From IMG/VR virus record IMGVR_UViG_3300034994_000033, positions 1-53,374 of that record: a stretch of 53,374 nucleotides of DNA, one strand, 5' to 3'. The notes under the pieces were generated by a model, which made no database searches, was not told the DNA's origin, and was given only the letters and a program-made list of their open reading frames with translations. Every line of letters starts with the position of its first letter. Positions within the stretch are counted from its first letter, which is position 1. The stretch is from a virus (lineage: Duplodnaviria; Caudoviricetes). This document shows, piece by piece, positions 1 through 53,302 of this stretch. Position numbers and translations under genes: made by a program.

Positions 1-103
1 GTATGAGGGGCATATTTTCCACGAGGAAATGATCAAGAAGGGGTTTCAAGAAACCGCCGTGGACACCTGCCTATTTCTGATAAATAAGCCCCTATGGGCA
101 TAA
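1..103 (+). CDS. 3' end of a second copy of the small NPPY methyltransferase cassette gene (partial, spans contig junction)
   Basis: 1-104 is identical to 3095-3198; TAA at 101-103. Confidence 0.9.
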   Translation, partial: YEGHIFHEEMIKKGFQETAVDTCLFLINKPLWA

Positions 104-148
104 CGGCCAAAGGGTAAGCGGTGCAACCGCTTCACCCGATGGTTAGAT
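98..148 (-). mobile_element. attC: attC site (51 bp)
   Basis: + strand GCATAAC-GGCCAAAG-GGTAAGCGG..CCGCTT(C)ACC-CGATG-GTTAGAT: two core sites around an imperfect hairpin with an extrahelical base in the right arm. Confidence 0.9.
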
Positions 149-166
149 TACGAAAGGAGCGACAGC

Positions 167-538
167 ATGACAGACGAGCAAACATATTTCCGAGCGTTGC
201 AGAAAATTCAGAACGGTTGCTACTGCTACACCCTTGCACAGATAAAGGCAATCGTTGATGACGCATTAAACCCTGTGCCGCAATATGAGGATGTAGAGGT
301 TGTCAGGTTTGAGTGCCTGACTTGTGGATTCATTGAGGTCGAAGACTGCACATCTCCAAACGAGTGTTGCCGGAATGATGCACGAATTACACTGAAAGGC
401 TCATATAGCGTGAGGAAAAAGCCCAAAGAGTTTCGCCGTGAAGAAATCGCATTTGATATGAATTTCATTGAGGCTCTTGTATGTGGCGGTAAACGTATCC
501 CGCTATCGGCTAAATATTACGCAGAGTGGGCAGAGTAA
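167..538 (+). CDS. Cassette gene, hypothetical Cys-rich (CxxC...CC) protein
   Basis: AAGGAG RBS; cassette ends GTTAGATTAC (142-151) and GTAATCTAAC (535-544) are perfect 10-bp complements. Confidence 0.8.
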   Translation: MTDEQTYFRALQKIQNGCYCYTLAQIKAIVDDALNPVPQYEDVEVVRFECLTCGFIEVEDCTSPNECCRNDARITLKGSYSVRKKPKEFRREEIAFDMNFIEALVCGGKRIPLSAKYYAEWAE

Positions 539-600
539 TCTAACGGGTCTGTGGCTGACCCGCCGGGGTTCATCGGGCGGTGTCCGGCCACTGGTTAGCG
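538..600 (-). mobile_element. attC: attC site (63 bp)
   Basis: ATCTAAC...GGCTGACCCGCC..GGCGG(T)GTC(C)GGCC..GTTAGCG; two unpaired bases in the right arm. Confidence 0.9.
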
Positions 601-628
601 ATATTTCAGCAAAATCAAGGAGATAATC

Positions 629-898
629 ATGCAACCTCGTAGACTGTACTGGACAAGCATTGCCACTTTTGACGAGAAAAACGAGCCGGGACACACTGAT
701 TACGTTCGCCGCGAAGTGCGCTCACGGCTGAAAGATTTGATTGCCGACGAATCAATCAAGATTGCCACTCGTGATCGGGATCATGACGGATGCAGAGAGT
801 TTACGGCTTCGCTGTATGTTCTGACTGATACCGAGATGAAAGAGTTTGTTGATTACATAAACCGTCAAGCGTGTAAGGGATTGCCGGTCATTTTGTAG
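629..898 (+). CDS. Cassette gene, hypothetical protein
   Basis: AAGGAG RBS; cassette ends GTTAGCGATA (594-603) and TATCGCTAAC (899-908) are perfect complements. Confidence 0.8.
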   Translation: MQPRRLYWTSIATFDEKNEPGHTDYVRREVRSRLKDLIADESIKIATRDRDHDGCREFTASLYVLTDTEMKEFVDYINRQACKGLPVIL

Positions 899-901
899 TA
901 T

Positions 902-959
902 CGCTAACGGGTAGCCGATGACCGGACGGCTTTTGTTCCGGTCGATGGGCGGGTTATGC
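902..959 (-). mobile_element. attC: attC site (58 bp)
   Basis: CGCTAAC...ATGACCGGA..TCCGGTC(G)AT..GTTATGC; extrahelical G in the right arm. Confidence 0.9.
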
Positions 960-987
960 CCGTCAATTATTCATCATGGAGGAAGTT

Positions 988-1209
988 ATGTCAAAATCAA
1001 AAGCTCCCGCAATACACGTCGGAAATATTATCAACGCGGCAACTCGTAACGAACTCACGGAATATGTGAAAGACATATTTACTGCTGGCAGAGAGACTGA
1101 CCAATCTGGCGCAACAATACGCCACGCGCTCTCAATGTTTTCTGAATGCCAAGAAGTAAAAAATCTCTCAATTTCAAATTGCAACTTCACGAACGGGGTT
1201 AAGGCATGA
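988..1209 (+). CDS. Cassette gene, hypothetical protein (first of two in this cassette)
   Basis: GGAGG RBS before ATG 988 (ORF track starts at 976); ATGA overlap with the next ORF. Confidence 0.7.
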   Translation: MSKSKAPAIHVGNIINAATRNELTEYVKDIFTAGRETDQSGATIRHALSMFSECQEVKNLSISNCNFTNGVKA

Positions 1210-1400
1210 ATACCAATTCAAAAACAACATATATCCTGCTAGATCGGGGGACAGAGGATAAGGAGTTGTTGGGAGACATCAACCGGATATTTTCAGACCT
1301 TGGCGAACCATCCATTAAAAATATTGCAGTACGGTACCCAAAGCTATTGGAGTTCAAGCAATATTTACAAGATGAAGTGGAAATGGAAGCATCCGCATAA
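1206..1400 (+). CDS. Cassette gene, hypothetical protein
   Basis: Translationally coupled to the previous ORF; stop TAA lies in core site GCATAAC. Confidence 0.7.
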   Translation: MNTNSKTTYILLDRGTEDKELLGDINRIFSDLGEPSIKNIAVRYPKLLEFKQYLQDEVEMEASA

Positions 1401-1452
1401 CGGCTTGAGCTGACCAGACGGCTTTTCGGTCTGGTCGAGCGTTTGGTTATAA
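1395..1452 (-). mobile_element. attC: attC site (58 bp)
   Basis: GCATAAC-GGCTTGA-GCTGACCAGAC..GTCTGGTC(G)AGC-GTTTG-GTTATAA; textbook attC bottom-strand layout on the + strand. Confidence 0.95.
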
Positions 1453-1487
1453 TGCGTCTGGCTGGATAGCGAAAAGGAGGGTTAACC

Positions 1488-1673
1488 GTGGAATGCCCTA
1501 ATTGTTTCCCTGATACCACCAATGTTGGATGCCCTCTCTGTCGGGGAAATTACTTCTTTGATTCCTGTTGTGACGAAATACAAGATGACGATGACGGTTA
1601 CGAAGATGACGATGACGGTTACGACCTGAACGATTACGAAGAAGATTGCAGGGTCAACAGGGGGCAAGGATGA
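1488..1673 (+). CDS. Cassette gene, small Cys-rich protein with acidic Asp/Tyr repeat tail
   Basis: AAGGAGG RBS, GTG start; CPNC/CPLC motifs; 21-bp tandem repeat at 1582-1624 encodes DDDDGY twice. Confidence 0.7.
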   Translation: MECPNCFPDTTNVGCPLCRGNYFFDSCCDEIQDDDDGYEDDDDGYDLNDYEEDCRVNRGQG

Positions 1674-1951
1674 ACTTAAAGGAACAGGCGGAGCAATTTG
1701 CAGGGTCTTACACCCACCGACCAGCTGAAGCTTGTGTTCTGGTAAGGGAACTTCTGAATGAGATATTAAATCTTGAAACGGACTTGGCAAGCAAGAAAGC
1801 CGTTATCGCTGAACAGGCGGGCGTCCGCAAAAAGACCGCGATTGAGGCAATCGGTATTGTTCAAGAGTGGCGCAACAGCAACAAGCTGATTGACAAGCTG
1901 GTGCATACATTCGGTGTTTACGATGACATTTACGGCAAGAAGGAAGCATAA
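1670..1951 (+). CDS. Cassette gene, hypothetical helical protein
   Basis: ATGA overlap with the previous ORF; in frame with track ORF 1646..1951. Confidence 0.7.
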   Translation: MNLKEQAEQFAGSYTHRPAEACVLVRELLNEILNLETDLASKKAVIAEQAGVRKKTAIEAIGIVQEWRNSNKLIDKLVHTFGVYDDIYGKKEA

Positions 1952-1952
1952 A

Positions 1953-2615
1953 GTGGAAAAAGTTATTATCGGAAATGCAACTCTGTTCAAGGGAAACTGC
2001 ATGGCTGGACTGATTGACGCGGCTGATGGACAATTCAGCCTTGCAATAGTTGACCCGCCGTATGGTTTGGGAAAAAAGATCACGGCAGGCGGCACATGGA
2101 GCGCAAAACATGCCAAGGCAAACCCTCAAGGCTTTGAATGGGATGTTGCACCGACTTTCGAGTATTTCCACCGGCTAAAAAGAGTGACTACAAATCAAAT
2201 AATTTGGGGCGCAAATTACTTCGCGATGCCGCCGTGTAGAGGCTTCATCGTCTGGGACAAGGGAGTTTTATTCGGATCAGGGCAAACGTTCGCAGAGGGT
2301 GAATACGCTTGGACGAGTTTTGACCGTAATGCCAAAATCACAAGGGTTATGCCGCTTATGGGTTTTCTTTGCAGAGGCGTGGAAGAACGCATACACCCGA
2401 CACAAAAGCCGGTTTCACTGTATCGGTGGTTGTTGGCAAACTATGCAATAGCAGGAGATACGATACTTGACACGCACATGGGCAGCGGAAGCAGCGTGAT
2501 TGCCTGTCTTGACGCTGGGCTGGCCATCACCGCCTACGAAGCGAATCAAGAATATTTCGATTTGGCTTGTGAAAGAATAGAGAGATCACAGCAACAAATG
2601 AAATTAGCATTATAA
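1953..2615 (+). CDS. Cassette gene, N6-adenine/N4-cytosine DNA methyltransferase (beta class)
   Basis: DPPY catalytic motif, HPTQKP, LDTHMGSGS SAM motif; GTG start just after the previous stop. Cassette ends GTTATAATGC (1446-1455) and GCATTATAAC (2607-2616) are complementary. Confidence 0.9.
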   Translation: MEKVIIGNATLFKGNCMAGLIDAADGQFSLAIVDPPYGLGKKITAGGTWSAKHAKANPQGFEWDVAPTFEYFHRLKRVTTNQIIWGANYFAMPPCRGFIVWDKGVLFGSGQTFAEGEYAWTSFDRNAKITRVMPLMGFLCRGVEERIHPTQKPVSLYRWLLANYAIAGDTILDTHMGSGSSVIACLDAGLAITAYEANQEYFDLACERIERSQQQMKLAL

Positions 2616-2667
2616 CGGAGGAGATAAGCAGTGAGCGAAGCGAATCTGATTGATCGTATTGTTATGC
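2610..2667 (-). mobile_element. attC: attC site (58 bp), identical from TAAC onward to the site at 53245-53302
   Basis: TTATAAC-GGAGGA-GATAAGCAG..GCGAAGC..CTGATT(G)ATC-GTATT-GTTATGC. Confidence 0.9.
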
Positions 2668-3197
2668 CGGTTGTCGATCTGAATATGCTCCGGGCATACA
2701 AGAAAAAATTCAACTTCTTCGAGACCCCGGAAGTGTTAGCCGACCAAATGGCTGGCTTTTTGGATGGACTGGGCCGCAATGCCCGAATATTGGAGCCATC
2801 CGCTGGAATGGGGGCACTGATACGGGCAATTGAAAGGGCGATGCTGTTTCTGCCGCAGATTGATTACTGCGAGATACAAGAAGAATTTGCAGCCATTCTT
2901 TCCACGTATAACCGCGTCGGTTCTGATTTTATGCAATACAAGCCGGGGCCGGTATATGACGCCGTGATTATAAATCCGCCGTACAAAAACAAGCTGGCCG
3001 AACTGCACGTAGACCATGCCTGGAATTGCATAAAGCCGGGCGGCTGGATCGTGGCACTTGTAGGAAAAACGGCGGGAAGCTACATAGGCTCAGAGTATGA
3101 GGGGCATATTTTCCACGAGGAAATGATCAAGAAGGGGTTTCAAGAAACCGCCGTGGACACCTGCCTATTTCTGATAAATAAGCCCCTATGGGCATAA
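2631..3197 (+). CDS. Cassette gene, small SAM-dependent amino-methyltransferase (gamma-type order), probably acting on DNA
   Basis: FFETP, ILEPSAGMGAL (motif I), INPPY (motif IV); stop TAA in core site GCATAAC. Confidence 0.85.
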   Translation: MSEANLIDRIVMPVVDLNMLRAYKKKFNFFETPEVLADQMAGFLDGLGRNARILEPSAGMGALIRAIERAMLFLPQIDYCEIQEEFAAILSTYNRVGSDFMQYKPGPVYDAVIINPPYKNKLAELHVDHAWNCIKPGGWIVALVGKTAGSYIGSEYEGHIFHEEMIKKGFQETAVDTCLFLINKPLWA

Positions 3198-3229
3198 CTT
3201 CTGATTATGCAGCCTTCTGGCGGGATAAC
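3192..3229 (-). mobile_element. attI: attI-like primary recombination site
   Basis: Minus strand GCATAAT-CAGAA-GTTATGC (L box, 5-bp spacer, GTTRRRY-type R box); extra GTTATCC direct repeat at 3223-3229; sits between the array and the intI start and has no attC stem. Confidence 0.8.
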
Positions 3230-3256
3230 GGGAAAAACTTTTGAAAGGAGAAAACC

Positions 3257-4420
3257 ATGCAACCTACTAAAATCAGAACACAATACACCTTTGCTCAACG
3301 TGATAATGAAATCCTGAAAAGCCCCCGTGTTGCTGGCTGGCTCTCTGATCTCCAAAAAGAATTTGCCGTCCACCACACCGACCCAAAAACCCAGAAATCC
3401 TACCGCCGAGTGATCATCCGCTTTATCCTCTGGAAAATCAAAGGCCAGTGCATGGATGATTTTGATACCGCCATGCGTAATTATCTGACCATGCGGGCGG
3501 ATAAAGATCAAATTGCCGCCAGTACCCAGAATGTTGATTTCAACGCCCTGCTGTTTTTCTGCCGGCACGTCCTGAAAAAAGAGCTCGGTAAGATCGATGC
3601 CGCCCGGGCCAAGCGGTCACAACACCTCTACGTGATCCTGTCGCGGGAAGAAGTCCGATCGATCATCGCGGCATCCACCGACGTCTACAAACTCATCAAC
3701 TCCCTGATGTACGGCTGCGGCCTCCGGGTAGAAGTCGATTGCCTGGAAATCAGGGTGAAAGATGTTGATCTTGCCCGTGGCAAGCTGGATATCCGTGATA
3801 GTAAGCACGGCAGCGCCCGTGAATTGGATATTCCTCTGGCGTGTGTCGATTTCCTTCGACTCCAGATAGAAGCCTGCAAGCGCGTTCATGATGCCGATCT
3901 GGCCGCCGGCTTCGGCGAGGTGGATCTGCCTGGTGCTTATGGCCGAAAAAATCCCGGCGCCTCCAAGGATTTTGGCTGGCAATATCTGTTTTTTGCTCAG
4001 TCGAGATGGGTCAACAAGGACGGCAGACAAGGCCGGCCACATATCCACGTTTCAGCGGTTCAGGACGCGTTCAAGATGGTCCGTAAATCACTCAGTATCT
4101 ACAAACCAGCCACTCCACACTGTATGCGTCATTCTTATGCAACACACATGTTGGAGGATGGTGTGGATATTCGTAAACTACAAAAGTTACTTGGTCACCG
4201 GAAAGTCGAGACAACGGAAGTCTACACACAGTTTACTCAGGGTGCGGGCATCCGCAGCCCGCTGGACCGTATTCTTGGTATTGCAGGAGATCTGTTACCG
4301 GTAAACGTTGGCGCGGATGTTCGGCGGTGGCTCGTGTCTTTTGCCTCAAAACTAAACATCACACAAGAAGAAGCCGCCGCACAGGTTCTGTCAATGGCTG
4401 CTCATGGGGGCATCCTGTGA
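3257..4420 (+). CDS. intI: Integron integrase (IntI family tyrosine recombinase) with C-terminal extension
   Basis: AASTQNVDFNALLFF, RAKRSQHLYVILSREEV, MYGCGLR, IntI-specific insertion DLAAGFGEVDLPGAYGRKNPGASKDFGWQYLF, HCMRHSYATH, LLGH..TTEVY, GIRSPLD. Catalytic R-K-H-R-H-Y residues appear intact. Confidence 0.95.
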   Translation: MQPTKIRTQYTFAQRDNEILKSPRVAGWLSDLQKEFAVHHTDPKTQKSYRRVIIRFILWKIKGQCMDDFDTAMRNYLTMRADKDQIAASTQNVDFNALLFFCRHVLKKELGKIDAARAKRSQHLYVILSREEVRSIIAASTDVYKLINSLMYGCGLRVEVDCLEIRVKDVDLARGKLDIRDSKHGSARELDIPLACVDFLRLQIEACKRVHDADLAAGFGEVDLPGAYGRKNPGASKDFGWQYLFFAQSRWVNKDGRQGRPHIHVSAVQDAFKMVRKSLSIYKPATPHCMRHSYATHMLEDGVDIRKLQKLLGHRKVETTEVYTQFTQGAGIRSPLDRILGIAGDLLPVNVGADVRRWLVSFASKLNITQEEAAAQVLSMAAHGGIL

Positions 4421-4689
4421 ATCAAGACCACCTTTATCAATTTCCCGCTACCCGTTTTGTCTCAAATTCTCTCTGGTGTCAATGGTGGCATTTATTATCT
4501 GAAGTTCTTGAAATCGGCTGGGAGTTGCTGGTCGGCAATCTGCAGCGGGCCGCAAATGAGTCGTGGGATGCCAGTCAGAGCAACGAAACGTTGCGGAGGA
4601 TCCTGTCCGGCCAGGGGGCGGATATTGAAATGGCACGGGAACAGGTTGTCAAGGGTTGTCAAGAGCGCGGGTATTATCAGGCGTTATAG
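4417..4689 (+). CDS. Small helical protein, possibly MazG-like NTP pyrophosphohydrolase
   Basis: GTGA overlap with the intI stop; SEVLE...NESWD acidic pattern and ERGYY C-terminus. Confidence 0.45.
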   Translation: MNQDHLYQFPATRFVSNSLWCQWWHLLSEVLEIGWELLVGNLQRAANESWDASQSNETLRRILSGQGADIEMAREQVVKGCQERGYYQAL

Positions 4690-4723
4690 GTTGTAGCATA
4701 CTCCACTGCCGAGGTTCTTTTTA

Positions 4724-5644
4724 ATGGAATGGTTTAGATGGTATGGCGGGACGTTCAATGATCCGAAATTGCAGTGGGTAGCCAGTAAGTCGTGCCAGAC
4801 GGTGGCGTCGGTTCTGGCGGTATGGGTGGCTGTCCTGGAGCGGGCCAACGGTAACGAGCTCCGAGGCTGCTGCGCCGGTCTTGATTTTGAGTCGTTGGAT
4901 ATTGCCCTCGGCCTGGAGGATGGTGCTACGTGCGATATTTATCAAACGATGACGCGCAAGGCGATGATTATCGAGGGTGATATGGTTGCCGCCTGGGACA
5001 AGCGCCAACCAAAACGGGAGGACGAAACAGCGGCGGAGCGAAAGAAAACGTATAGGGATAGAGTGAAGTTGGAGAATGAAAACGAGCAGTTACGTGCTCA
5101 ATTACTTTCGCTGCAGTCCCACAATGTCCCACAATGTCCCACAATGTCCCATGATGTCACAACAGAGGAGAGGAGAGTAGAAGAGAAGAGAGAAGAAGAA
5201 CCTTTAAAAACACAACAGCAACACGCGAGCGCGGTTGAACAATTGGCCGAGGCGGTTGAAGAGCACCAGCAGGATCTGCTGCGGCTGTTCCCTGAGATCG
5301 ATATTCCGGTGGCGCTGGCGAAGCTGTTGCATCATTTCAGAACCAGCGAACGGCTGATTGATCCGTGGATGATAGCGCTAAAATGGTTTCAGAGGGAGTT
5401 CAAAGCATCTGCTCCACAAGCTACGGCACGGGCCTCTCCGGCAGGGCAGAAAAGCAAAGGCGTTTTGAGGGAAGAAGCGGCTATTCAAGCGGCTCGGGAA
5501 ACAATGGAGCTACTGGAGGATATGCGGAATGGAACGAAACAAACAGGTACAGGTGTTGACGTTGTTGCTGGAAATGACAGTCGCTCTCGGGATAGAACCG
5601 CTTTCAGCCAAACGCCAAGCGCTGTATCTGAGGCATTTGGCTAA
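4724..5644 (+). CDS. Phage replication initiator (O-like replisome organiser)
   Basis: N-terminal WFRWY..NDPK, WDKRQ, RKKTYR helix; internal iteron-like repeats. Confidence 0.8.
   Translation: MEWFRWYGGTFNDPKLQWVASKSCQTVASVLAVWVAVLERANGNELRGCCAGLDFESLDIALGLEDGATCDIYQTMTRKAMIIEGDMVAAWDKRQPKREDETAAERKKTYRDRVKLENENEQLRAQLLSLQSHNVPQCPTMSHDVTTEERRVEEKREEEPLKTQQQHASAVEQLAEAVEEHQQDLLRLFPEIDIPVALAKLLHHFRTSERLIDPWMIALKWFQREFKASAPQATARASPAGQKSKGVLREEAAIQAARETMELLEDMRNGTKQTGTGVDVVAGNDSRSRDRTAFSQTPSAVSEAFG
5116..5200 (+). repeat. Putative replication origin: 10-bp iteron-like repeats followed by a purine tract
   Basis: GTCCCACAAT x3, then GTCCCATGAT and GTCACAAC, then an almost all-purine run, in the middle of the initiator gene as in lambdoid ori. 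Confidence 0.65.
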
Positions 5645-5951
5645 TTGGCCGGTCGAGGCTTTGCGTTGGGCGTGCGACCGGGCGGTACAGGAATGTCGTT
5701 ATCAGGTCATGCCGGTCCCTGGGGTGTTGATCGATTATGCCCGTGCAGCACCTCGCCGGCAGGTATGCGGTGATTTGAAGCGCACGGCATTGGATCATAC
5801 GACCAGCTACAACGAAAAGTTGGCAGAGGAATCGATAAACGCGGTTATGGCGTTGTTTACTGATGATTTTGACCGTAAGGGCATGCCGCCGGTTGTTAAA
5901 ACTCCGAGTGCGGCGGAGCAGCGAGTAGCGTTGATGGCAACTGGGTTTTAA
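5529..5951 (+). CDS. Replication accessory protein (helicase-loader position)
   Basis: GGAGG upstream; overlaps the initiator 3' end; assignment is mainly positional. Confidence 0.5.
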   Translation: MERNKQVQVLTLLLEMTVALGIEPLSAKRQALYLRHLANWPVEALRWACDRAVQECRYQVMPVPGVLIDYARAAPRRQVCGDLKRTALDHTTSYNEKLAEESINAVMALFTDDFDRKGMPPVVKTPSAAEQRVALMATGF

Positions 5952-6224: not shown

Positions 6225-6263
6225 GTGTTCATTATCATAGTGAATTTTTTTGTTGCGTATTCG

Positions 6264-6289
6264 TTTATGTTGCGGTAGCCCTGAAATAT
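6264..6289 (+). promoter_or_regulatory. Late-promoter motif copy 1
   Basis: TTTATGTTGCGGTA, also at 24364 and 39455, each at a late module start. Confidence 0.65.
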
Positions 6290-6944
6290 GGGAACTGCTA
6301 ACTCGACAAATTTTGAACAAACTGCCGCTACCGGCCAGATGGTGCTTCATGATTTTGAGGCAATCATCGGTTATGAGGCGGCTGTTCTTAAAAAACCGCG
6401 CAATGAGATGTTCTGTGTGGCTTTTGTCGAGAATGGTGGCCATGCTGGAAAGGCATACCAGGCGGCAATTAATCCAAAAACTACTGATAGCAATGCCCGC
6501 AAACGCGCTCATGAACTGTTGAAAAACAAGGACATATCAGGACGTATCGCTGAATTGTCTGCTGTTATCCGCAATAGAACAATTAATGACCTGATAGACT
6601 TTCGTATCAAGGGCATGAAGTTTGATCCCGCCAATTATTACGACTCCAGTTCTGGTATCAGAAGGCAATTGCATATCAGCGACGTTAAGGATGGCCACCG
6701 AATTGGTATAGGTCTGGAGTCTCGCATCGTTGATGGCGGTGTTGTGTATGTACCGGTATTCCCCTCCCCTGAAAAATCTGCTGATGCACTGCAGAAGATG
6801 ATGGGACTCGATAAGTCGCTGGTGGAACTGGCTGGGAAGAACGGTGGGCCAATACAGACTGAAAGTGTGGTTGATGATATGGGCAGGCTGCAAAGTCTCA
6901 AGGAGAAAGCGCAGGCGTTAAAGAATGCCGGTATTATCTCCTGA
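6288..6944 (+). CDS. terS: Terminase small subunit
   Basis: AYQAA..ARKRAHELLKNKDI helix-turn-helix, ELAGKNGGPI motif; directly upstream of TerL. Confidence 0.85.
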   Translation: MGTANSTNFEQTAATGQMVLHDFEAIIGYEAAVLKKPRNEMFCVAFVENGGHAGKAYQAAINPKTTDSNARKRAHELLKNKDISGRIAELSAVIRNRTINDLIDFRIKGMKFDPANYYDSSSGIRRQLHISDVKDGHRIGIGLESRIVDGGVVYVPVFPSPEKSADALQKMMGLDKSLVELAGKNGGPIQTESVVDDMGRLQSLKEKAQALKNAGIIS

Positions 6945-12566: not shown

Positions 12567-13508
12567 ATGGCAGGACAGGTTTGGGTAACTAACACGGTTG
12601 GCGGCTATTTATCAGCCAAGAACCTCTCCAAGGAACTGCGCAACGTGGTTCAGCCAATGGTTAAGTTCCGCCAGTTCGCTGATATCAAGGACGCAGTTGG
12701 CAAAAACAAGGGGCAGTTGTTCACCTGGGACGTTTTCTCTGATGTTGCTACTCAGGGTACGACACTGGTTGAAACCAACACCATGCCTGAAACAAACTTC
12801 GTCATCACTCAGGGTACGATGACGATTCAGGAATACGGCAACTCTGTGCCTTATTCCGGCGTTCTTGATGATCTTTCCGAGATCCCGGTAAAAGAGATCG
12901 TCAACAAGGCGATGAAGAATGATGCCAAGAAGGCGTTCGACTTCGGTGCCCATGCTGCATTCAATGCGACGCTGTTGAGGGTGGCCCCTACCGGCGGTAC
13001 CGATACCGCTTCAATCGTGTTGACCACCAACGGCACGGCGACGGCGACCAATAACGTGGCATTCAACAAAAACCACGCCAAGGCGCTGGTAGATGTCATG
13101 AAAGAGCGCAATATCAACCCCTATGTCGGGGATGATTACATGGCGCTGGCCTGGCCGACTACCCTGCGGACCCTCAAGAACGATCTGGAGGCCGTCCATC
13201 AGTATACCGACGCCGGTTTCCAGATGATCATGAATGGCGAGATTGGCCGCTACGAGAACACCCGTTATGTCGAGCAGACCAACGTGGTCAAGGACACCAA
13301 CTGGGGTCAGGCTAAGTCCGGGTGGATTTATTTCTTTGGTGAAGATGCCGTTTCCGAAGGTGTGGCGAATCCTGAAGAGGTTCGCGGCAAGATCCCTGGG
13401 GATTACGGTCGCAGTAAAGGTGTTGCCTGGTACTACCTGGGCGGTTTCGCCAAGAACCGTTTGACTGCGGTTGATGAGCGAATCGTCAAGTGGGATTCGG
13501 CGGCATAG
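12567..13508 (+). CDS. Major capsid protein
   Basis: GGAGG RBS; EYGNSV, NGEIGRYENTRYVE, GVAWYYLGG motifs; followed by a terminator. Confidence 0.9.
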   Translation: MAGQVWVTNTVGGYLSAKNLSKELRNVVQPMVKFRQFADIKDAVGKNKGQLFTWDVFSDVATQGTTLVETNTMPETNFVITQGTMTIQEYGNSVPYSGVLDDLSEIPVKEIVNKAMKNDAKKAFDFGAHAAFNATLLRVAPTGGTDTASIVLTTNGTATATNNVAFNKNHAKALVDVMKERNINPYVGDDYMALAWPTTLRTLKNDLEAVHQYTDAGFQMIMNGEIGRYENTRYVEQTNVVKDTNWGQAKSGWIYFFGEDAVSEGVANPEEVRGKIPGDYGRSKGVAWYYLGGFAKNRLTAVDERIVKWDSAA

Positions 13509-13513
13509 TCCGA

Positions 13514-13543
13514 TGGGGAGGGTTTGCGCCCTCCCCAATTTTT
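13514..13543 (+). terminator. Rho-independent terminator after MCP
   Basis: TGGGGAGGG-TTTGCG-CCCTCCCCA followed by ATTTTT. Confidence 0.85.
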
Positions 13544-13561
13544 CTAAACAAGGGGATGATC

Positions 13562-13741
13562 ATGGATAAAAAAATGTGTGACCATAAGATGGATATGCCT
13601 AACGGCGAAGTAAGTGGCAAGGATCTGCCGGACAAAGGATTTAAGACTGGCGTTACCGATACATATGGTGTTGGCGGGGATGATTTGAACCGTGGCTATA
13701 CAGGCGGCGATAAGATTGTCAAGGACACCAAAAGCAACTGA
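13562..13741 (+). CDS. Small hypothetical protein
   Basis: AGGGG RBS; 3' part of track ORF 13490..13741. Confidence 0.55.
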   Translation: MDKKMCDHKMDMPNGEVSGKDLPDKGFKTGVTDTYGVGGDDLNRGYTGGDKIVKDTKSN

Positions 13742-13772
13742 AATAACAACCATTTTAACATGAGGTAATAAC

Positions 13773-14213
13773 ATGACACAGAAACTGAGAAAGCTGGATA
13801 AAAAAAGACCTTTTGCGGAAATCTACGGCTCACATGCTGCCCGCTATGAGCAGTTTGGTATTCAATTCGATGCCGAGGGCGTTGAGCTGGAAGGTTTTCA
13901 GGATGTTGTTGTTCCGGCTGAAATCCCGGTAATTACCGCGGAAACAAGCGAACCGGCGTTGCGGGACGAAATTGCCCGTCTGGCTGATGAGTTGAGCAGG
14001 GTTTCCGCTGAACTGGAAGAGAAGGATGCCGAGATTGAGGAAATCCAGGGCAAGCTTGATACCGCTCAGGTTGAAATCACGCGGCTTACGGCGGCTTTGC
14101 CTGATGCTGCCCCTGTGAAAACCGGGAAAAATGCAAAAGGGAATACAGCTACCACAGATTCACAGCTTGACTCACTACTTGATGCGCAGTTGACAGCACA
14201 AGGTGCGCTCTGA
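13773..14213 (+). CDS. Hypothetical coiled-coil protein
   Basis: GAGGT RBS; acidic heptad region. Confidence 0.7.
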   Translation: MTQKLRKLDKKRPFAEIYGSHAARYEQFGIQFDAEGVELEGFQDVVVPAEIPVITAETSEPALRDEIARLADELSRVSAELEEKDAEIEEIQGKLDTAQVEITRLTAALPDAAPVKTGKNAKGNTATTDSQLDSLLDAQLTAQGAL

Positions 14214-24351: not shown

Positions 24352-24363
24352 ATTGAATATTCA

Positions 24364-24394
24364 TTTATGTTGCGGTATGCGTTCAATATCATAG
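24364..24394 (+). promoter_or_regulatory. Late-promoter motif copy 2
   Basis: TTTATGTTGCGGTATGCGTTCAATATCATAG before the ejection module. Confidence 0.65.
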
Positions 24395-39440: not shown

Positions 39441-39454
39441 CGCTTGAATTATTA

Positions 39455-45059: not shown

Positions 45060-45135
45060 TTTGTGAATTGAACCGCCTAAAATCCAAATTTATGTGAAAT
45101 TATTTGTTGACACTTCAGATTTTGTGAATTATAAA
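45059..45135 (+). promoter_or_regulatory. Early rightward promoter with operator-like repeats
   Basis: TTGACA (45107-45112), 17 nt, TATAAA (45130-45135); TTTTGTGAATT at 45059 and 45120, TTTATGTGAAATT at 45089. Confidence 0.8.
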
Positions 45136-50610: not shown

Positions 50611-50726
50611 TTGGATCAATATTGTGTCGTGACCATCAAGCCTGCGGAACGCCACCGTGGAAGGAAGCGTAAACCGAGGACGACACTTTTTAATTGAGGC
50701 CGCATAAACAAACGGAGGCGACGATA

Positions 50727-51494
50727 ATGGCAAAAACAGCAGTTGAGGCACCACGTACCAATGCCTGGCTTTTTGACCCAGAGCATCTAAGGCTTGTAAT
50801 GGATGAAAAACATCCTCTCTACGATCCGCGTGTCCACCTCCCGACAGATGAAGCCATGATTAGAAACATCATGGTCAACGGTGTGATTGAGCCCGTAATA
50901 ATTGCCAAGGAGGGCCAGGACGTTGTGGTTGTCGATGGTAGACAGCGTACCAAGAACGCTATTGAGGCTAACAAGCGCCTGACAGCTGAAGGTAAGGAGC
51001 CGGTAAAAGTTACTTGCATTATCCGGCGGGGCGATGACGCAAGCCTGTTCGGGGTACTAATATCTGCCAACGAGAACAGACAAGATGATACGCCTCTCGG
51101 TAAAGCCGACAAGTTGTCCCGGTACTTGGCAATGGGCCGGACTGAGGAACAGGCCGCGATAGCCTTTGGTGTTTCCACCGTCACTATCAAGACCTGGCTT
51201 GTAATGCTCACTCTTTCTGACAAGGTAAAGCAGGCGGTTGATGGCGGTGTCATATCTGCCACAGCCGCCGTGAAACTTGCCGATCTACCAAGGCCAGAAC
51301 AGGAAACCGCTTTGAATTCTCTTATTGAGTCAGGGGGCAGAACCTCTGGACGCAATGTCGAGAAGGTCAAAAACGGTAATCGACCTTCGCTTGCAAAAAT
51401 GAAGTCCAGGAAGGCCGTTGAACTGAAGTTGGCTGAAGAAGGGCTCCATACAGAGTTTATTGCGGCATTGAAGTGGGTACTGGGCTTGCGATAA
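50727..51494 (+). CDS. ParB/Srx N-terminal domain protein with HTH
   Basis: NGVIEPV, VVVDGRQR, ANENRQDD, EEQAAIAFGVS; stop TAA lies in the distal attC core. Confidence 0.85.
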   Translation: MAKTAVEAPRTNAWLFDPEHLRLVMDEKHPLYDPRVHLPTDEAMIRNIMVNGVIEPVIIAKEGQDVVVVDGRQRTKNAIEANKRLTAEGKEPVKVTCIIRRGDDASLFGVLISANENRQDDTPLGKADKLSRYLAMGRTEEQAAIAFGVSTVTIKTWLVMLTLSDKVKQAVDGGVISATAAVKLADLPRPEQETALNSLIESGGRTSGRNVEKVKNGNRPSLAKMKSRKAVELKLAEEGLHTEFIAALKWVLGLR

Positions 51495-51539
51495 CGGCTA
51501 GAGGATGACGGGCTTGCCCCGTCCAGCCGATTGTTATCC
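51489..51539 (-). mobile_element. attC: attC site (51 bp), distal end of the array
   Basis: CGATAAC-GGCTAGAG-GATGACGGG..CCCGTC(C)AGC-CGATT-GTTATCC. Confidence 0.85.
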
Positions 51540-51573: not shown

Positions 51574-51939
51574 ATGTTAAACGTGAATGATTCCAGTATG
51601 GCGGCAAATGCAATCTGTCACGCTGCCGAAATGACCCGCGAAACGATCAGAATGGCAGTCTACGAGTACGAACGTCCGTCAACGGTACACAAACCCCGTC
51701 TTTTCATTGATGGCGATCATTGGTGTGCTCTCTTCGGTGAGAATTTACAGGACGGTGTTGCAGGATTCGGGGTGTCTCCTTCGGCGGCAATGAACGATTT
51801 TGACAACAACTGGTGTAGGCCGCTACCGCCCAAAATGAGCGGTATTCCCGGCATGACTCAAAAGGATTTCGAAACCGTCGTGGCAGAAGAACAACGGATA
51901 ATTGACCGGGAAAATTTGGAGAAGCTGAAAGAAGGATAA
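51574..51939 (+). CDS. Cassette gene, hypothetical protein with HicB-like segment
   Basis: AAGGAG RBS; DGDHWCALFG..GVAGFGVSPSAAM; cassette ends GTTATCCTTC and GAAGGATAAC are perfect 10-bp complements. Confidence 0.75.
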   Translation: MLNVNDSSMAANAICHAAEMTRETIRMAVYEYERPSTVHKPRLFIDGDHWCALFGENLQDGVAGFGVSPSAAMNDFDNNWCRPLPPKMSGIPGMTQKDFETVVAEEQRIIDRENLEKLKEG

Positions 51940-51986
51940 CGGCCTTGGCAATCAGCGGGTTCACCGCTGGATTGACTTGGTTAAAC
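51934..51986 (-). mobile_element. attC: attC site (53 bp)
   Basis: GGATAAC..CAATCAGCGG..CCGCTG(G)ATTG..GTTAAAC. Confidence 0.9.
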
Positions 51987-52005: not shown

Positions 52006-52257
52006 ATGTCACACGGATGCTCAAGCCGATCAATAACCAGTATGGAACAGTTTGGACAGTTGAGCGGCGAACCCCAAACCAGCTCCGAGCGTATGCACAG
52101 GGCTGAGGCATTAGCAAACCATTATCGCAATGCACTGAAATTAATTGCAGATTCTGATATTACTCCAGAGATTGCAAAACAGATTTCCGATGGGGTCTCC
52201 GTAGACCGAATTTATGAAAATATCGCATACGAGGCGCTGCAACTAGAGTCGGTTTAA
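52006..52257 (+). CDS. Cassette gene, hypothetical protein
   Basis: AAGGAG RBS; ends GTTAAACC and GGTTTAAC are complementary; stop in the core site. Confidence 0.75.
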   Translation: MSHGCSSRSITSMEQFGQLSGEPQTSSERMHRAEALANHYRNALKLIADSDITPEIAKQISDGVSVDRIYENIAYEALQLESV

Positions 52258-52320
52258 CGGGGCGGCGGATGAGCAGCTGTCCCGCGAAGCGGGGTGACTG
52301 TCTCTATCCGTTGGTTCGAC
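52252..52320 (-). mobile_element. attC: attC site (69 bp)
   Basis: GTTTAAC..CGGATGAGCAG..GCGAAGC..CTGTCTC(T)ATCCG-TTG-GTTCGAC. Confidence 0.85.
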
Positions 52321-52435
52321 GCCCCGGAGGGGCGCTCGCAACCAATGTAAGCAAGTGGGGGTGGGGTCGATTCGGAACCTCGCCGCTTTTGACTCAAAAC
52401 AGTTTGTTGGCCGGAACGGCCATAAGGGGGTTGGT

Positions 52436-52684
52436 GTGAAACCTAGATTGAAATGTGATAATTGCGATTGGACTCAACAGACTGAATCATGCAAAGAAGC
52501 GGCAACTTGGCTGAATAAGCAGTGCCCTGCTTGTGGCAAGTGTGAAATTGTATCTATGGCGGATTTAATGGTACTGGCACAAATCCAGGGGTTAGAAGAT
52601 TTTGGCCTTGCTGGAGAGTCTGACTCTGTTTTGGATGGAGAATCGGTACGGTATGAAATTGATACTGCCGTGCTCCGTGGTTGA
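52436..52684 (+). CDS. Cassette gene, zinc-ribbon protein
   Basis: AAGGGGG RBS, GTG start; CDNC, CPAC. Confidence 0.7.
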   Translation: MKPRLKCDNCDWTQQTESCKEAATWLNKQCPACGKCEIVSMADLMVLAQIQGLEDFGLAGESDSVLDGESVRYEIDTAVLRG

Positions 52685-52771: not shown

Positions 52772-52834
52772 GACGAACGCTGTAGCGTGACCAGCGGCGG
52801 GTTTTAGCCGACTGGTCCACAGCGTTGGTTAGGG
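52772..52834 (-). mobile_element. attC: attC site (63 bp)
   Basis: GACGAAC..GTGACCAGCGGC..GCCG(A)CTGGTC(C)AC..GTTAGGG. Confidence 0.85.
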
Positions 52835-52844: not shown

Positions 52845-53213
52845 ATGCCATTTATGACAAAAGAACAAATCAATTGGGCGTGTGACACCATCGGGGATCT
52901 TCTCCGGGAATGGAAGCGCCTGCATGTTGAAAACGAATCCCTGAAAAGGGAAATACAGCAGTTGAGGAGCAAAACAATGATGCGAGCAAAAATGAAAGTG
53001 GCAAGAGTCGAAAACAAAGGGGCACACGAGAAACTTGATTTTTCGGCTGTCTGCAAAAACGATGGATATCCGGCAGACGGTAGCGACGAAAACAACACAT
53101 TTGCAATGTGGACACCTTCCGCCGAACTTTCCATGACCATCAACAATCCGGCACTGATCGGCAAGTTCTCCGTTGGTCAAGAGTTCTATCTTGATTTCAC
53201 TCTGGCAGAGTAG
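52845..53213 (+). CDS. Cassette gene, hypothetical phage protein (possible internal start at 52977)
   Basis: Cassette ends GTTAGGGCG and CGCCCTAAC are complementary; GAGGAG RBS before MMRAKMKV. Confidence 0.7.
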   Translation: MPFMTKEQINWACDTIGDLLREWKRLHVENESLKREIQQLRSKTMMRAKMKVARVENKGAHEKLDFSAVCKNDGYPADGSDENNTFAMWTPSAELSMTINNPALIGKFSVGQEFYLDFTLAE

Positions 53214-53244: not shown

Positions 53245-53302
53245 CCCTAACGGAGGAGATAAGCAGTGAGCGAAGCGAATCTGATTGATCGTATTGTTAT
53301 GC
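53245..53302 (-). mobile_element. attC: attC site (58 bp), duplicate of 2610-2667
   Basis: CCCTAAC, then identical to 2617-2667. Confidence 0.9.

What the first reader, a model, noticed from the sequence alone, without database searches (positions are those of the whole stretch)
98..3210. All cassette genes are antisense to the canonical attC/attI polarity (an inside-out integron)
Seen: in all ten attC sites the + strand has the longer spacer on the left and the shorter spacer and extrahelical base(s) on the right arm (e.g. AAC-GGCTTGA-GCTGACC..GGTC(G)AGC-GTTTG-GTT), the layout of a canonical attC bottom strand. Independently, the repeated cassette carries its upstream attC and its identity stops exactly at the downstream AAC. 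attI reads L-5bp-GTT on the minus strand. Yet every cassette ORF is on the + strand. Known: canonical cassettes point away from intI and are driven by Pc. Inference: these cassettes are driven by the phage early promoter (45107-45135) reading toward intI. The newest cassette is then promoter-distal, and intI and the replication genes lie downstream of the array. Such cassettes would be silent in a host integron and host cassettes silent here, which could create a phage-private cassette pool.
Basis: partly seen in the sequence, partly recalled or inferred. Interest (0 to 1): 0.92.

Follow-up and report, generated by a model that had tools for sequence, protein, structure and literature searches.

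The report
Phage integron with backwards-facing gene cassettes
A temperate phage carries a complete integron whose recombination sites point the normal way relative to the integrase, but whose captured genes all lie on the opposite strand from every described integron, so they are read towards the integrase as part of the phage's early genes.

Summary
The window is a whole 53,374-bp viral record. It carries an integron integrase (3257-4420, +), an attI-like site (3196-3210) and ten attC sites. The array wraps round the record ends (51489-53302 and 98-2667).

A covariance model built only from canonical attC sites, in bottom-strand orientation, hit the intI-sense strand in 48 of 48 control matches. 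In the window all 11 of its matches were on the + strand; 9 of them are array sites. The bulged bases sit about 8 nt before the 3' GTT, as in class 1 attCs. Cassette gains, losses and duplications in the window, in a pair of 100%-identical relatives and in a second sample all break at the left-hand AAC. So the + strand is the recombinogenic bottom strand.

All 12 cassette ORFs are nevertheless on the + strand. Two are DNA methyltransferases, and 7 of 11 AAC boxes supply a + ORF's TAA stop. Chromosomal integrons of the likely host order (Geobacterales) have similar attCs but the usual opposite gene orientation. Related and distant viral integrase loci share the phage layout.

Expression from the early promoter and a phage-private cassette pool remain inferences. 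Six literature searches found no description of this layout.

The parts
51489..51539 (+). attC 1, the site furthest from attI. Its AAC box (CGATAAC) holds the TAA stop of the ParB-like gene.
   Evidence: Canonical-attC model R2, 19.0 bits, + strand; R-box partner test 4/4 with the next junction.
51574..51939 (+). Cassette ORF (121 aa, no family hit); its stop is the TAA of the next AAC box.
51934..51986 (+). attC 2
   Evidence: R2 17.2 bits, + strand; 3'-arm bulge; fold energy -10.0 on the + strand against -8.6 on the minus strand.
52006..52257 (+). Cassette ORF (83 aa); its stop is the TAA of GTTTAAC.
52252..52320 (+). attC 3, a longer site missed by the covariance model.
   Evidence: Fold -15.7 (+) against -12.7 (-), two bulges on the 3' arm; partner test 3/4. 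Not reported by R2.
52355..52684 (+). Cassette ORF (up to 109 aa, start uncertain).
52772..52834 (+). attC 4
   Evidence: R2 12.7 bits, E 1, + strand; partner test 4/4.
52845..53213 (+). Cassette ORF (122 aa, coiled-coil-like).
   Evidence: Codon log-ratio +25.3; only weak sub-threshold Pfam hits.
53245..53302 (+). attC 5, the attC of the second copy of the duplicated methyltransferase cassette. The record ends inside this copy at 53374.
   Evidence: R2 37.9 bits, + strand; repeat D2.
1..104 (+). 3' end of the second copy of the duplicated cassette (identical to 3095-3198), ending at AAC.
   Evidence: Repeat D4, 100% identity.
98..148 (+). attC 6
   Evidence: R2 19.9 bits, + strand; single bulged C 8 nt before the GTT.
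167..538 (+). Cassette ORF (123 aa) preceded by AAAGGAG.
538..600 (+). attC 7
   Evidence: R2 15.2 bits, + strand; 3'-arm surplus (2 against 4 unpaired).
629..898 (+). Cassette ORF (89 aa).
902..959 (+). attC 8
   Evidence: R2 17.7 bits, + strand; 3'-arm surplus (1 against 3 unpaired).
988..1400 (+). Two overlapping cassette ORFs (988-1209 and 1206-1400) in one cassette.
1395..1452 (+). attC 9, the best match to canonical attCs.
   Evidence: R2 44.6 bits, E 6e-9, + strand, with alignment shown; bulged G 8 nt before the GTT.
1488..2615 (+). Three-gene cassette: 1488-1673, 1670-1951, and the N6/N4 DNA methyltransferase 1953-2615.
   Evidence: Pfam N6_N4_Mtase E 3.8e-13; PHROG DNA methyltransferase E 7.5e-35.
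2610..2667 (+). attC 10, belonging to the attI-proximal copy of the duplicated cassette. It holds the GGAGGAG ribosome-binding motif and the GTG start of the ORF.
   Evidence: R1 33.2 bits and R2 36.7 bits, + strand; its GTTATGC pairs 4/4 with GCATAAC at 3192-3198.
2631..3197 (+). DNA methyltransferase ORF (188 aa) of the duplicated cassette 2616-3197.
   Evidence: PHROG DNA-methyltransferase families, best named hit E 6e-19; codon log-ratio +45.7.
3196..3256 (+). attI region: crossover AAC at 3196-3198, spacer TTCTG, L box ATTATGC at 3204-3210, then about 46 nt to the intI start.
   Evidence: Repeat identity ends at 3198. By my reading, about 12 of the 14 relatives' upstream regions printed carry TAAC plus TWCTGATTAT or a variant of it about 58 nt before the start codon. 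attI1 has the same layout.
3257..4420 (+). intI, the integron integrase (387 aa).
   Evidence: TIGR02249 266.6 bits, cut-off 265, full profile 2-315. The IntI-specific insertion and the columns aligned with the tyrosine-recombinase catalytic residues are conserved.
4724..5644 (+). Replication initiation protein downstream of intI.
   Evidence: PHROG 3729, E 6.8e-14.
50694..51494 (+). ParB-like gene immediately upstream of the array.
   Evidence: PHROG 1033, E 8e-40; Pfam HTH_ParB.
45107..45135 (+). Early-promoter-like motif TTGACA-17-TATAAA, with two copies of TTTTGTGAAT nearby. It faces away from the CI-like repressor gene 44655-45059 (-).
   Evidence: Sequence read; CI repressor Pfam hit. 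Not listed by the consensus scan, whose rule needs T at position 6 of the second hexamer.

Best explanation
This is a complete integron carried by a temperate phage whose host is probably in the Geobacterales.

The recombination machinery is conventional. IntI sits next to an attI site, and the attC hairpins present their recombinogenic bottom strand on the same strand as intI, with the crossover between A and C of the AAC at the 5' end of that strand. What is unconventional is the cargo. In every cassette the gene lies on the bottom strand, so a cassette is [attC - ribosome-binding site - ORF - TAA|C] rather than [ORF - attC].

A cassette inserted at attI therefore arrives with its 3' end against attI and points towards intI. 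The whole array is read as one stretch of the phage's rightward early operon: CI-controlled promoter, early genes, ParB-like gene, cassettes, intI, replication initiator. The newest cassette is the furthest from the promoter.

The cargo includes orphan DNA methyltransferases, so the array probably serves as an exchangeable store of phage accessory or counter-defence genes.

Shown here: the polarity of the sites, the crossover position, the coding strand, cassette-level variation between near-identical genomes, and the same layout in relatives. Inferred: transcription from the early promoter, activity of this IntI, cassette function, and isolation of the cassette pool from host integrons.
For: IntI. 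TIGR02249 scores 266.6 bits against a cut-off of 265 over the whole profile. The protein keeps the IntI-specific insertion and the aligned catalytic columns.

Strand polarity by covariance model. Model R1 (six class 1 attCs in bottom-strand orientation) scores its seeds at 84-86 bits on the bottom strand and 19-21 bits on the top strand. Model R2 (15 canonical attCs, none from the phage group) gave 48 of 48 matches on the intI-sense strand upstream of intI in control loci; 47 of these were not in its training set. In the window, with filters off, all 11 of its matches were on the + strand and 9 are array sites. In 78 further viral and metagenome loci, 76 of 76 matches were on the intI-sense strand.

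Bulge geometry. In canonical attCs fetched with intI on the + strand and annotated cassette genes on the minus strand, the first bulge lies about 8 nt before the 3' GTT of the + strand. The phage sites show the same on the strand that carries their ORFs.

Crossover position.
- The duplicated cassette 2613-3198 is bounded by AAC at both ends in two contexts.
- L017 and L105 are 100% identical over 6.1 kb and 1.3 kb. L017 has two extra [attC+ORF] units inserted between an ATAAC and attI. L105 has a tandem copy of a 275-bp AAC-to-AAC unit.
- A contig from a second sample joins the cassette's end to its start.

Cassette identity. 39 of 40 variable R-box positions pair with the next junction.

Coding strand.
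- 12 of 12 + cassette ORFs have a codon-usage log-ratio at or above 0, against 0 of 20 minus-strand ORFs of at least 45 aa.
- Two + ORFs are DNA methyltransferases.
- 7 of 11 AAC boxes supply the TAA stop of the upstream + ORF.

Contrast with the host order. 91 of 201 Geobacterales genomes encode an IntI above the cut-off. Their attCs resemble the phage's, but the longest ORF is on the minus strand in 11 of 11 cassettes. In the phage group the + ORF is longer in 18 of 22.

Distant viral arrays. 7 of 14 + ORFs tested have Pfam hits (methyltransferases, RNA ligase and others), against 0 of 6 minus-strand ORFs tested.

Phage context. A CI repressor and a second tyrosine integrase are present. A replication initiator and the terminase subunits lie downstream of intI.
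Against: - There is no RNA evidence, so the promoter assignment and read-through into intI are untested.
- No recombination assay exists. IntI clears its family cut-off by only 1.6 bits.
- Six of the nine array matches of R2 are individually weak (E 0.015 to 1), and one site was missed.
- The fold-based bulge test has exceptions. L017 7962-8012 has its bulges on the 5' arm, L017 8702-8751 has none, and one of seven Shewanella-phage control sites is reversed.
- The codon-usage classifier failed on chromosomal controls (7 minus, 11 plus, 10 undecided), so for the window it is supporting evidence only.
- In four of 22 phage-group cassettes the minus-strand ORF is longer.
- In the wider viral set, 27 of 59 intervals were undecided and 6 were called minus.
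- The second copy of the duplicated cassette is seen only as 127 + 104 nt at the record ends.
- The joint in the second sample rests on one low-depth contig with 23 nt on its shorter side, laid at 90% likeness.
Confidence: 0.8

Rival explanations
1. The array is an ordinary one read the ordinary way. The + strand is the attC top strand, each cassette is ORF followed by attC, crossovers occur at the right-hand G|TT, and the integrase merely lies at the far end of a cluster of attC sites.
For: By sequence alone the pattern looks canonical: ORF, stop codon in a TAAC box, hairpin, GTT box. The R-box partner test fits this model as well as the other.
Against: The canonical-attC model in bottom-strand orientation hits only the + strand, and it separates the strands by about 65 bits on known sites. 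The bulges are on the 3' arm. The attI-proximal cassette copy ends at AAC and lacks the hairpin that follows the other copy. In L105 the methyltransferase ORF abuts attI with no hairpin, while L017 has the hairpin plus two more units there. A conserved attI lies beside intI.
Confidence: 0.03
2. The real cassette genes are on the minus strand, as in a canonical layout, and the + strand ORFs are shadows.
For: Minus-strand ORFs of 75-122 aa exist in several cassettes. One promoter-like site reads on the minus strand at 994-966.
Against: 0 of 20 minus-strand ORFs have a positive codon log-ratio, against 12 of 12 + ORFs. Two + ORFs are methyltransferases with strong family hits. + ORFs have ribosome-binding motifs and use the TAA of the AAC box. 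No Pc-like site was found on the minus strand near intI, and promoter-like sites are not enriched (2 found, 6.1 expected). 0 of 6 minus-strand ORFs tested in relatives hit Pfam.
Confidence: 0.02
3. It is not an integron. The hairpins are terminators or intergenic palindromes between phage accessory genes, and the integrase is a Xer-like phage recombinase.
For: The family score is only just above the cut-off. Most cassette proteins have no known family. Hairpins between small phage genes are common.
Against: The protein matches the full IntI profile including the IntI-specific insertion. A separate tyrosine integrase and a CI repressor cover lysogeny. The hairpins match a model built from class 1 and chromosomal attCs. 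Insertions, deletions and duplications are unit-precise at AAC. The R boxes pair across units at 39 of 40 positions.
Confidence: 0.03
4. It is a real integron with this odd polarity but is now a frozen relic. The integrase no longer moves cassettes, and the variation seen arises from homologous recombination between repeats or from assembly of mixed populations.
For: Deletion between the two cassette copies, or tandem duplication, could arise by homologous recombination. Contig depths cannot give copy numbers. It is not known whether L017 and L105 come from independent samples.
Against: The two extra cassettes in L017 relative to L105 are flanked only by a 5-nt ATAAC, too short for homologous recombination. 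The aligned catalytic columns of IntI are intact. attI is conserved across relatives whose IntI is 48-68% identical, while the arrays share no cassette at the DNA level, which implies turnover.
Confidence: 0.12

Closest known systems
Canonical integrons: class 1 mobile integrons and sedentary chromosomal integrons, including those of Geobacterales
   Same: [quoted passage not shown] Crossover in the AAC of the bottom strand (rules taken from passages of Nivina et al. 2016, PMC5027507).
   Different: Cassette genes lie on the bottom strand instead of the top strand, so they point towards intI rather than away from it. No Pc-like promoter was found on the intI side. attC precedes each ORF instead of following it. 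The element is phage-borne and embedded in an early operon. [quoted passage not shown]
Reverse integrons, also called the inverted integron-integrase group (Treponema and others)
   Same: [quoted passage not shown]
   Different: In reverse integrons the intI gene is flipped. The cassettes lie downstream of intI and the attC sites have the same orientation as intI. Here the array lies upstream of intI, attC orientation relative to intI is the normal one, and it is the ORFs that are flipped.
Phage-associated integrons and attC clusters reported by Qi et al. 2023 (PMC9892861)
   Same: Integron parts in phage genomes. DNA methyltransferases among the cargo, and the suggestion that such cassettes help phages evade restriction (section 3.4 read in full).
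   Different: That survey of 10,705 phage genomes found three complete integrons, described as pieces of host integrons. The Shewanella phage M16-3 array fetched here has the canonical gene orientation. It does not describe a phage-specific IntI clade or reversed coding polarity. Its supplementary tables were not seen.
Reverse-oriented toxin-antitoxin cassettes in chromosomal integrons
   Same: [quoted passage not shown] A HicA/HicB-like pair was seen on the reversed strand in one Geobacterales array; the names come from reading the sequence, not from a search.
   Different: Those are scattered exceptions, thought to carry their own promoters. That point is my recollection of the Vibrio literature and comes from no passage read here. 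In this phage every cassette is reversed and none is canonical.

Membership tests
Integron (IntI + attI + attC cassettes) | Tyrosine recombinase of the IntI family carrying the IntI-specific additional domain | tested here: met
   TIGR02249 266.6 bits against cut-off 265, profile 2-315/315. The insertion aligns with that of IntI1.
Integron (IntI + attC cassettes) | attC sites: imperfect hairpins bounded by RYYYAAC and GTTRRRY, with extrahelical bases on one arm | tested here: met
   9 of 10 sites are matched by a model built from canonical attCs. 3'-arm bulges in 5 of 5 folded window sites and in the tenth site.
Integron (IntI + attI + attC cassettes) | attI next to intI, with the crossover at G|TT (AA|C on the bottom strand) | tested here: met
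   Repeat identity ends at AAC 3196-3198. Inverted L and R boxes with a 5-nt spacer. The motif is conserved in relatives. IntI binding itself was not tested.
Integron (IntI + attI + attC cassettes) | Cassettes are discrete mobile units whose two ends derive from one attC | tested here: met
   39 of 40 R-box positions pair across a unit. Unit-precise duplication and insertion or deletion.
Integron (IntI + attI + attC cassettes) | Pc promoter on the intI side reading into the array; cassette ORFs on the attC top strand | tested here: not met
   No promoter-like site on the minus strand at 3199-3600. All 12 cassette ORFs are on the bottom strand. This is the feature that differs.
Integron (IntI + attI + attC cassettes) | IntI-catalysed attI x attC and attC x attC recombination | not testable with these tools
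   Only comparative traces are available.
Reverse integron / inverted integron-integrase group | [quoted passage not shown] | tested here: not met
   Bottom-strand model hits lie on the intI strand, so the top strand is opposite intI as in normal integrons. The array is upstream of intI.
CALIN (cluster of attC sites lacking an integrase) | At least two attC sites with no integron integrase nearby | tested here: not met
   In the window, intI lies 59 nt from the last junction. The relative L017 has, in addition, a second integrase-distal array at 12828-16007.

The most novel reading that the evidence does not exclude
Inside-out integrons may be a widespread class specific to viruses, not a one-off.

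Across several unrelated IntI clades found on viral contigs, the recombinogenic bottom strand of attC is the coding strand. The arrays are stretches of phage early operons that end in intI. Their cargo (orphan methyltransferases, an RNA ligase, many unknown small proteins) would be a shuffling library of counter-defence genes, mirroring the defence-gene libraries proposed for bacterial chromosomal integrons.

Because ORF and attC are coupled the opposite way round, cassettes could pass mechanically between phage and host integrons but would be expressed only in their own kind. That gives two parallel cassette pools.

Placing the bottom strand on the non-template strand, and on the lagging-strand template if replication runs with transcription, would also favour hairpin folding and fast shuffling during infection.
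Probability: 0.4. Interest if true: 0.92.

Novelty: new variant of a known kind. Interest (0 to 1): 0.82.

Why it matters
Integron biology rests on one rule. The integrase recombines the bottom strand of attC, so promoterless cassettes always land facing away from intI and downstream of Pc. A natural family that keeps the recombination rule but reverses the coding strand bears on four points.

- Gene orientation is not dictated by the recombination chemistry. It is set by where transcription comes from.
- The layout bears on the open question of how cassettes are made. Inverting a canonical cassette cannot produce these units, because inversion flips ORF and attC together. They must have been assembled in this orientation.
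- It gives phages an exchangeable gene store of their own. Methyltransferases are the first recognisable cargo, and most of the other proteins are unknown.
- Surveys that compare only integrase and attC strands would classify this layout as a normal integron and could miss it.

The prediction is directly testable with existing strand-specific conjugation assays and with stranded RNA-seq of an induced lysogen.

Tried and rejected
MAFFT alignment of 19 phage attCs. RNAalifold found no consensus structure because the arms were out of register. I therefore built models from equal-length class 1 sites and enlarged them through model-guided alignment.

First hairpin scan. It was far too noisy and was replaced by stricter scans.

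Codon-usage classifier across loci. It separates the strands cleanly in the window but failed on chromosomal controls (7 minus, 11 plus, 10 undecided). It is not used for the wider claim.

Longest-ORF calls in the wider viral set. These left 27 of 59 intervals undecided.

Shared cassettes. DNA comparison of arrays between the window and relatives found none, so cassette boundaries could not be mapped that way. The L017/L105 pair and the window's own duplication served instead.

R-box partner test. It confirms cassettes but cannot tell the two polarities apart.

Expression. No RNA holder was listed among the three runs found, so nothing can be said about expression.

Contig depths in the probable source run. 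They were 11.5 for 75-2642, 31.7 for the cassette unitig 2613-3198, and 18.9 for 3169 onward. These would fit a mixed population, but the tool warns that such depths are neither copy numbers nor shares of cells.

A loose end in run X2 after position 1444 is unexplained.

The consensus promoter scan did not list the 45107-45135 motif, because its rule needs T at the last position of the second hexamer.

The careful tree search did not finish, so only the quick tree was used.

Literature., plus reading passages and one full section, found no description of an array whose cassettes are all antisense. Searches found no description of this phage IntI clade. The supplementary tables of Qi et al. 2023 and the supplementary figures of the IntegronFinder paper could bear on gene orientation in phage arrays and in the inverted group.

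Full report
WHAT THE WINDOW IS. The window is one complete IMG/VR virus record of 53,374 bp, with CheckV completeness 99. It is a temperate tailed phage. It encodes a CI-like repressor (44655-45059, minus strand) and a tyrosine integrase (42233-43165, minus strand). It also encodes small and large terminase subunits, a replication initiator and a ParB-like protein. Almost all long ORFs are on the + strand. The record's two ends lie inside a repeat: 2613-2739 equals 53248-53374, and 3095-3198 equals 1-104, both at 100% identity. The genome is therefore circular or circularly permuted, and the feature under study runs across the ends.

THE INTEGRON PARTS. ORF 3257-4420 (+) matches the NCBIfam integron-integrase model TIGR02249 over the whole profile, at 266.6 bits against a cut-off of 265. 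Aligned with IntI1, a Shewanella-phage IntI and a cyanobacterial IntI, it keeps the IntI-specific insertion. Columns R157, K183, H288, R291, H314 and Y323 are invariant. That these align with the catalytic residues of IntI1 is my recollection of that enzyme's numbering.

Ten hairpins of 43-69 nt, each bounded by AAC and GTT, separate small + strand ORFs. They lie at 51489-51539, 51934-51986, 52252-52320, 52772-52834, 53245-53302, 98-148, 538-600, 902-959, 1395-1452 and 2610-2667.

They behave as cassette junctions. The four variable bases of each GTT box pair with the AAC box of the next junction at 39 of 40 positions, but with the AAC box beside them at only 18 of 40. This is the classical sign that the two ends of a unit derive from one attC.

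Between the last AAC (3196-3198) and the intI start lies TTCTG-ATTATGC. On the minus strand this reads GCATAAT-CAGAA-GTTATGC, an inverted L/R pair with a 5-nt spacer. attI1 fetched in the same orientation has the same layout. By my reading, about 12 of the 14 relatives' upstream regions printed show TAAC followed by TWCTGATTAT, or a variant of it, about 58 nt before the start codon.

WHICH STRAND IS THE BOTTOM STRAND. The rule comes from passages of Nivina et al. 2016 (PMC5027507). The integrase cleaves the folded bottom strand in the 5'-AAC-3' of R', and the extrahelical bases lie near L''. Read 5' to 3', the bottom strand therefore starts with AAC and carries its bulges on the 3' arm.

(a) Fold geometry. 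I fetched class 1 and class 2 arrays from plasmids, the Shewanella phage M16-3 integron and a cyanobacterial plasmid integron, each turned so that intI is on the + strand. Their annotated cassette genes are then on the minus strand. In these controls the + strand shows its first bulge about 8 nt before the 3' GTT: aadA2, gcuF, aadB, aac(6')-Ib, dfrA14, dfrA1, blaIMP-10, and six of seven M16-3 sites. The window's + strand shows the same at 102-144, 906-955 and 1399-1448. Five of five clear window sites have a 3'-arm surplus. In the close relatives there are exceptions: L017 7962-8012 has its bulges on the 5' arm and L017 8702-8751 has none.

(b) Covariance models. Model R1 was built from six 60-nt class 1 attCs in bottom-strand orientation. 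It scores its seeds at 84-86 bits on that strand and 19-21 bits on the other. Model R2 was built from 15 canonical sites found by R1 in class 1 and Geobacterales chromosomal arrays, with none from the phage group. In control loci it gave 48 of 48 matches on the intI-sense strand, all upstream of intI; 47 of these were not in its training set. In the window, with filters off, it gave 11 matches at E up to 10, all on the + strand. Nine are array sites, scoring 44.6, 37.9 and 36.7 bits, then 19.9 down to 12.7 bits. The other two are weak (E 0.9 and 8.5). It reported nothing on the minus strand and missed 52252-52320. In L017 it gave 13 + strand matches and one minus-strand match at E 4.8.

(c) Crossover position. 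This line is independent of structure.
- The duplicated cassette is bounded by AAC at both ends. One copy is followed by the hairpin 98-148 and the other directly by attI. So the hairpin to the right of an ORF is not part of that ORF's cassette. The hairpin to its left is: 2610-2667 lies inside the repeat, and its GTTATGC pairs 4 of 4 with GCATAAC at 3192-3198.
- L017 (a 58-kb contig of a Geobacter MAG) and L105 (a metagenome contig) are 100% identical over 6,105 and 1,338 nt. L017 has 1,197 extra bases, two [hairpin+ORF] units, between the ATAAC that ends a methyltransferase gene and attI. L105 has that ATAAC fused directly to attI, and also a tandem copy of a 275-bp AAC-to-AAC unit.
- In a second sample, one low-depth contig joins the cassette's end to its start, which means a tandem copy or a circle. 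The shorter side is 23 nt, so this is weak evidence.

All of this places the crossover in the left-hand AAC of the + strand, beside the arm without bulges, exactly as in canonical attCs. The + strand is the bottom strand, and attC/attI polarity relative to intI is the normal one.

WHICH STRAND CODES. All 12 cassette ORFs are on the + strand. A codon-usage log-ratio trained on the phage's long genes is at or above 0 for 12 of 12 of them and negative for all 20 minus-strand ORFs of at least 45 aa in the array. With the array left out of training, 9 of 9 intervals are still called +. The same classifier failed on chromosomal controls (7 minus, 11 plus, 10 undecided), so I count it as supporting evidence only.

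Two + ORFs have family matches, and both are DNA methyltransferases. 1953-2615 hits Pfam N6_N4_Mtase at E 3.8e-13 and PHROG 67 at E 7.5e-35. 2631-3197 hits several PHROG DNA-methyltransferase families. The other ten have no family match. Ribosome-binding motifs precede most + ORFs. Seven of 11 AAC boxes provide the TAA stop of the + ORF to their left. In attC 2610-2667 the spacer GGAGGAG and the GTG start of the gene lie inside the site. No promoter-like site was found on the minus strand between attI and the first 350 nt of intI, and promoter-like sites are not enriched in 1-5000 (2 found, 6.1 expected).

COMPARISON WITH RELATIVES AND WITH THE HOST LINEAGE. IntI relatives at 48-68% identity occur on viral contigs and on the Geobacter MAG contig. 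They share an N-terminal extension and a roughly 50-aa C-terminal extension that other IntIs lack. Their arrays share no cassette with the window at the DNA level.

In the quick tree the window sits in a clade of 12 viral rows with 100% support. By upstream ORF coverage, 8 rows are plus, 3 mixed, 1 too short and none minus. Rows labelled minus cluster in chromosomal and plasmid clades: 8 changes against a shuffled mean of 16.5, matched in 0 of 500 shuffles. The labels are crude and the careful tree search did not finish.

In the order that contains the MAG (Geobacterales), 91 of 201 genomes encode an IntI above the cut-off. Twenty chromosomal loci were fetched. Their attCs resemble the phage's, for example GGCTTTA...GATT or GGGTCGG-GAGATCACC..., and lie on the intI-sense strand. 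But the longest ORF per cassette is on the minus strand in 11 of 11 cassettes. In the phage group the + ORF is longer in 18 of 22, and in class 1 and other controls the minus ORF is longer in 6 of 7.

In 78 further viral and metagenome loci, 76 of 76 R2 matches were on the intI-sense strand. Of 59 intervals beside them, 26 were called +, 6 minus and 27 undecided. Of 14 + ORFs tested, 7 hit Pfam: N6/N4 and C5 methyltransferases, a PAPS-reductase-like domain, an RNA ligase and a group II intron reverse transcriptase. None of 6 minus-strand ORFs did. So the layout is not confined to the window's clade, though the wider evidence is coarse.

HOW IT MOST LIKELY WORKS. Shown: recombination-site polarity, crossover point, coding strand and cassette-level variation.

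Inferred: a cassette circle pairs its folded + strand attC with attI, and insertion leaves [attC-ORF] with the ORF's 3' end against attI. Transcription enters from the left. The motif TTGACA-17-TATAAA at 45107-45135 faces away from the CI-like gene, with two TTTTGTGAAT repeats nearby. It is followed by about 6.4 kb of + strand early genes, then the ParB-like gene whose stop codon is the first AAC box, then the cassettes, intI and the replication initiator. In L017 the array starts directly after a cro-like gene and a promoter-like motif. Terminator-like sites in between are no more frequent than in shuffled sequence (14 found, 14.1 expected).

The newest cassette would thus be the furthest from the promoter, and intI would be read as the last gene of the array.

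Passages of Richard et al. 2024 (PMC13108822) state that bottom strands on the lagging-strand template fold and recombine more readily. If phage replication runs with transcription, this layout places them there. That is speculation.

Canonical cassettes inserted here would be antisense to the operon, and these cassettes would face Pc in a host integron. Hence the idea of separate cassette pools, which is logical but untested.

COMPARISON WITH WHAT IS KNOWN. It works like an integron and meets the family's recombination features. It fails one feature of the textbook definition, namely Pc-driven cassettes on the top strand. It is not a reverse integron. In those, intI is flipped, the cassettes lie downstream of it, and attC has the same orientation as intI (passages). 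Phage-borne integron parts and methyltransferase cargo have been reported (Qi et al. 2023; abstract, passages and section 3.4 read), but as captured host arrays or as integrase-less clusters. Six literature searches found no account of an array whose genes are all antisense to attC. [quoted passage not shown] I rate it a new variant of a known kind.

LIMITS. There is no expression or activity data. The family score is marginal. Several covariance-model matches are individually weak. One copy of the duplicated cassette is incomplete in the record. Population inferences rest on contigs, not reads. Supplementary files of the papers were not available.

Noticed in passing
window 1-104 and 53248-53374: The record begins and ends inside the duplicated 586-bp methyltransferase cassette. 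About 355 bp of the second copy (the equivalent of 2740-3094) is missing from the record, so the genome is probably circular or permuted and about 53.7 kb long.
   Followed up: partly
window 52729-52778: An inverted copy of the first ~25 nt of attC 3 (52256-52280) lies at the end of that cassette. It is followed by a near-perfect palindrome that runs from a GTT to the AAC of attC 4. It may be the remnant of an inverted site. Unexplained.
   Followed up: no
L017 12828-16007: The Geobacter-MAG relative has a second array of at least six attC sites on the + strand, downstream of intI and of a 484-aa ORF that I guess to be a helicase (not tested). Its R boxes chain from unit to unit, it carries + strand ORFs, and the contig ends at a further GCATAAC junction.
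   Followed up: partly
window 3257-4420 (residues 1-28 and about 338-387): The phage-clade IntIs share an N-terminal extension and a conserved C-terminal extension of about 50 aa (DVRRWL...GG.L) that is absent from IntI1, the Shewanella-phage IntI and the cyanobacterial IntI. Function unknown.
   Followed up: no
L220-L231 (chromosomal Geobacterales loci): A large group of chromosomal IntI genes in this order scores about 340-365 bits and lies in open frames of 450-540 aa. The sequence upstream of the match looks coding. This suggests an N-terminal extension of 130-200 aa.
   Followed up: no
L046 5297-6640: A group II intron reverse transcriptase/maturase lies on the + strand (the attC bottom strand) of a viral array, just after an attC match. 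This fits the reported habit of group IIC-attC introns of inserting into the bottom strand. Here the intron is therefore co-oriented with the cassette genes.
   Followed up: no
L222 and L233 (chromosomal loci of G089 and G117): Two of the 20 chromosomal integrase loci have mostly + strand ORFs upstream and one-directional genes downstream, like the phage layout. L233 has an attC (GGCTTGA...GTTTTG) close to the window's attC 9. They may be prophages of this type in sequenced genomes.
   Followed up: no
L218, oriented coordinates 6272-6855: A HicA/HicB-like gene pair lies on the reversed strand of an otherwise canonical chromosomal array. The names come from reading the translations, not from a search.
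   Followed up: no
window 6253-6296, 24353-24396, 39444-39487: A 44-nt motif (TTGAAT..TTTATGTTGCGGTA...) recurs three times in front of gene blocks. It may be a regulatory or late-promoter element.
   Followed up: no
window 33539-34012 and 19627-19815: There are two tandem copies of 237 nt inside the 3,750-aa ORF, and three copies of 63 nt inside the 1,184-aa ORF.
   Followed up: no
window about 1444 (run X2): One contig of the second sample follows attC 9 up to position 1444 and then continues with unrelated sequence, two bases before the GTT. It could be a variant, a chimera or another cassette. Unexplained.
   Followed up: no
L011 (Virus Rctr41k, KX853513) 1-5678: A published viral genome has an IntI-like gene (36% identity, annotated xerD) preceded by ten small same-strand ORFs. 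My fold scan found no attC sites there.
   Followed up: partly
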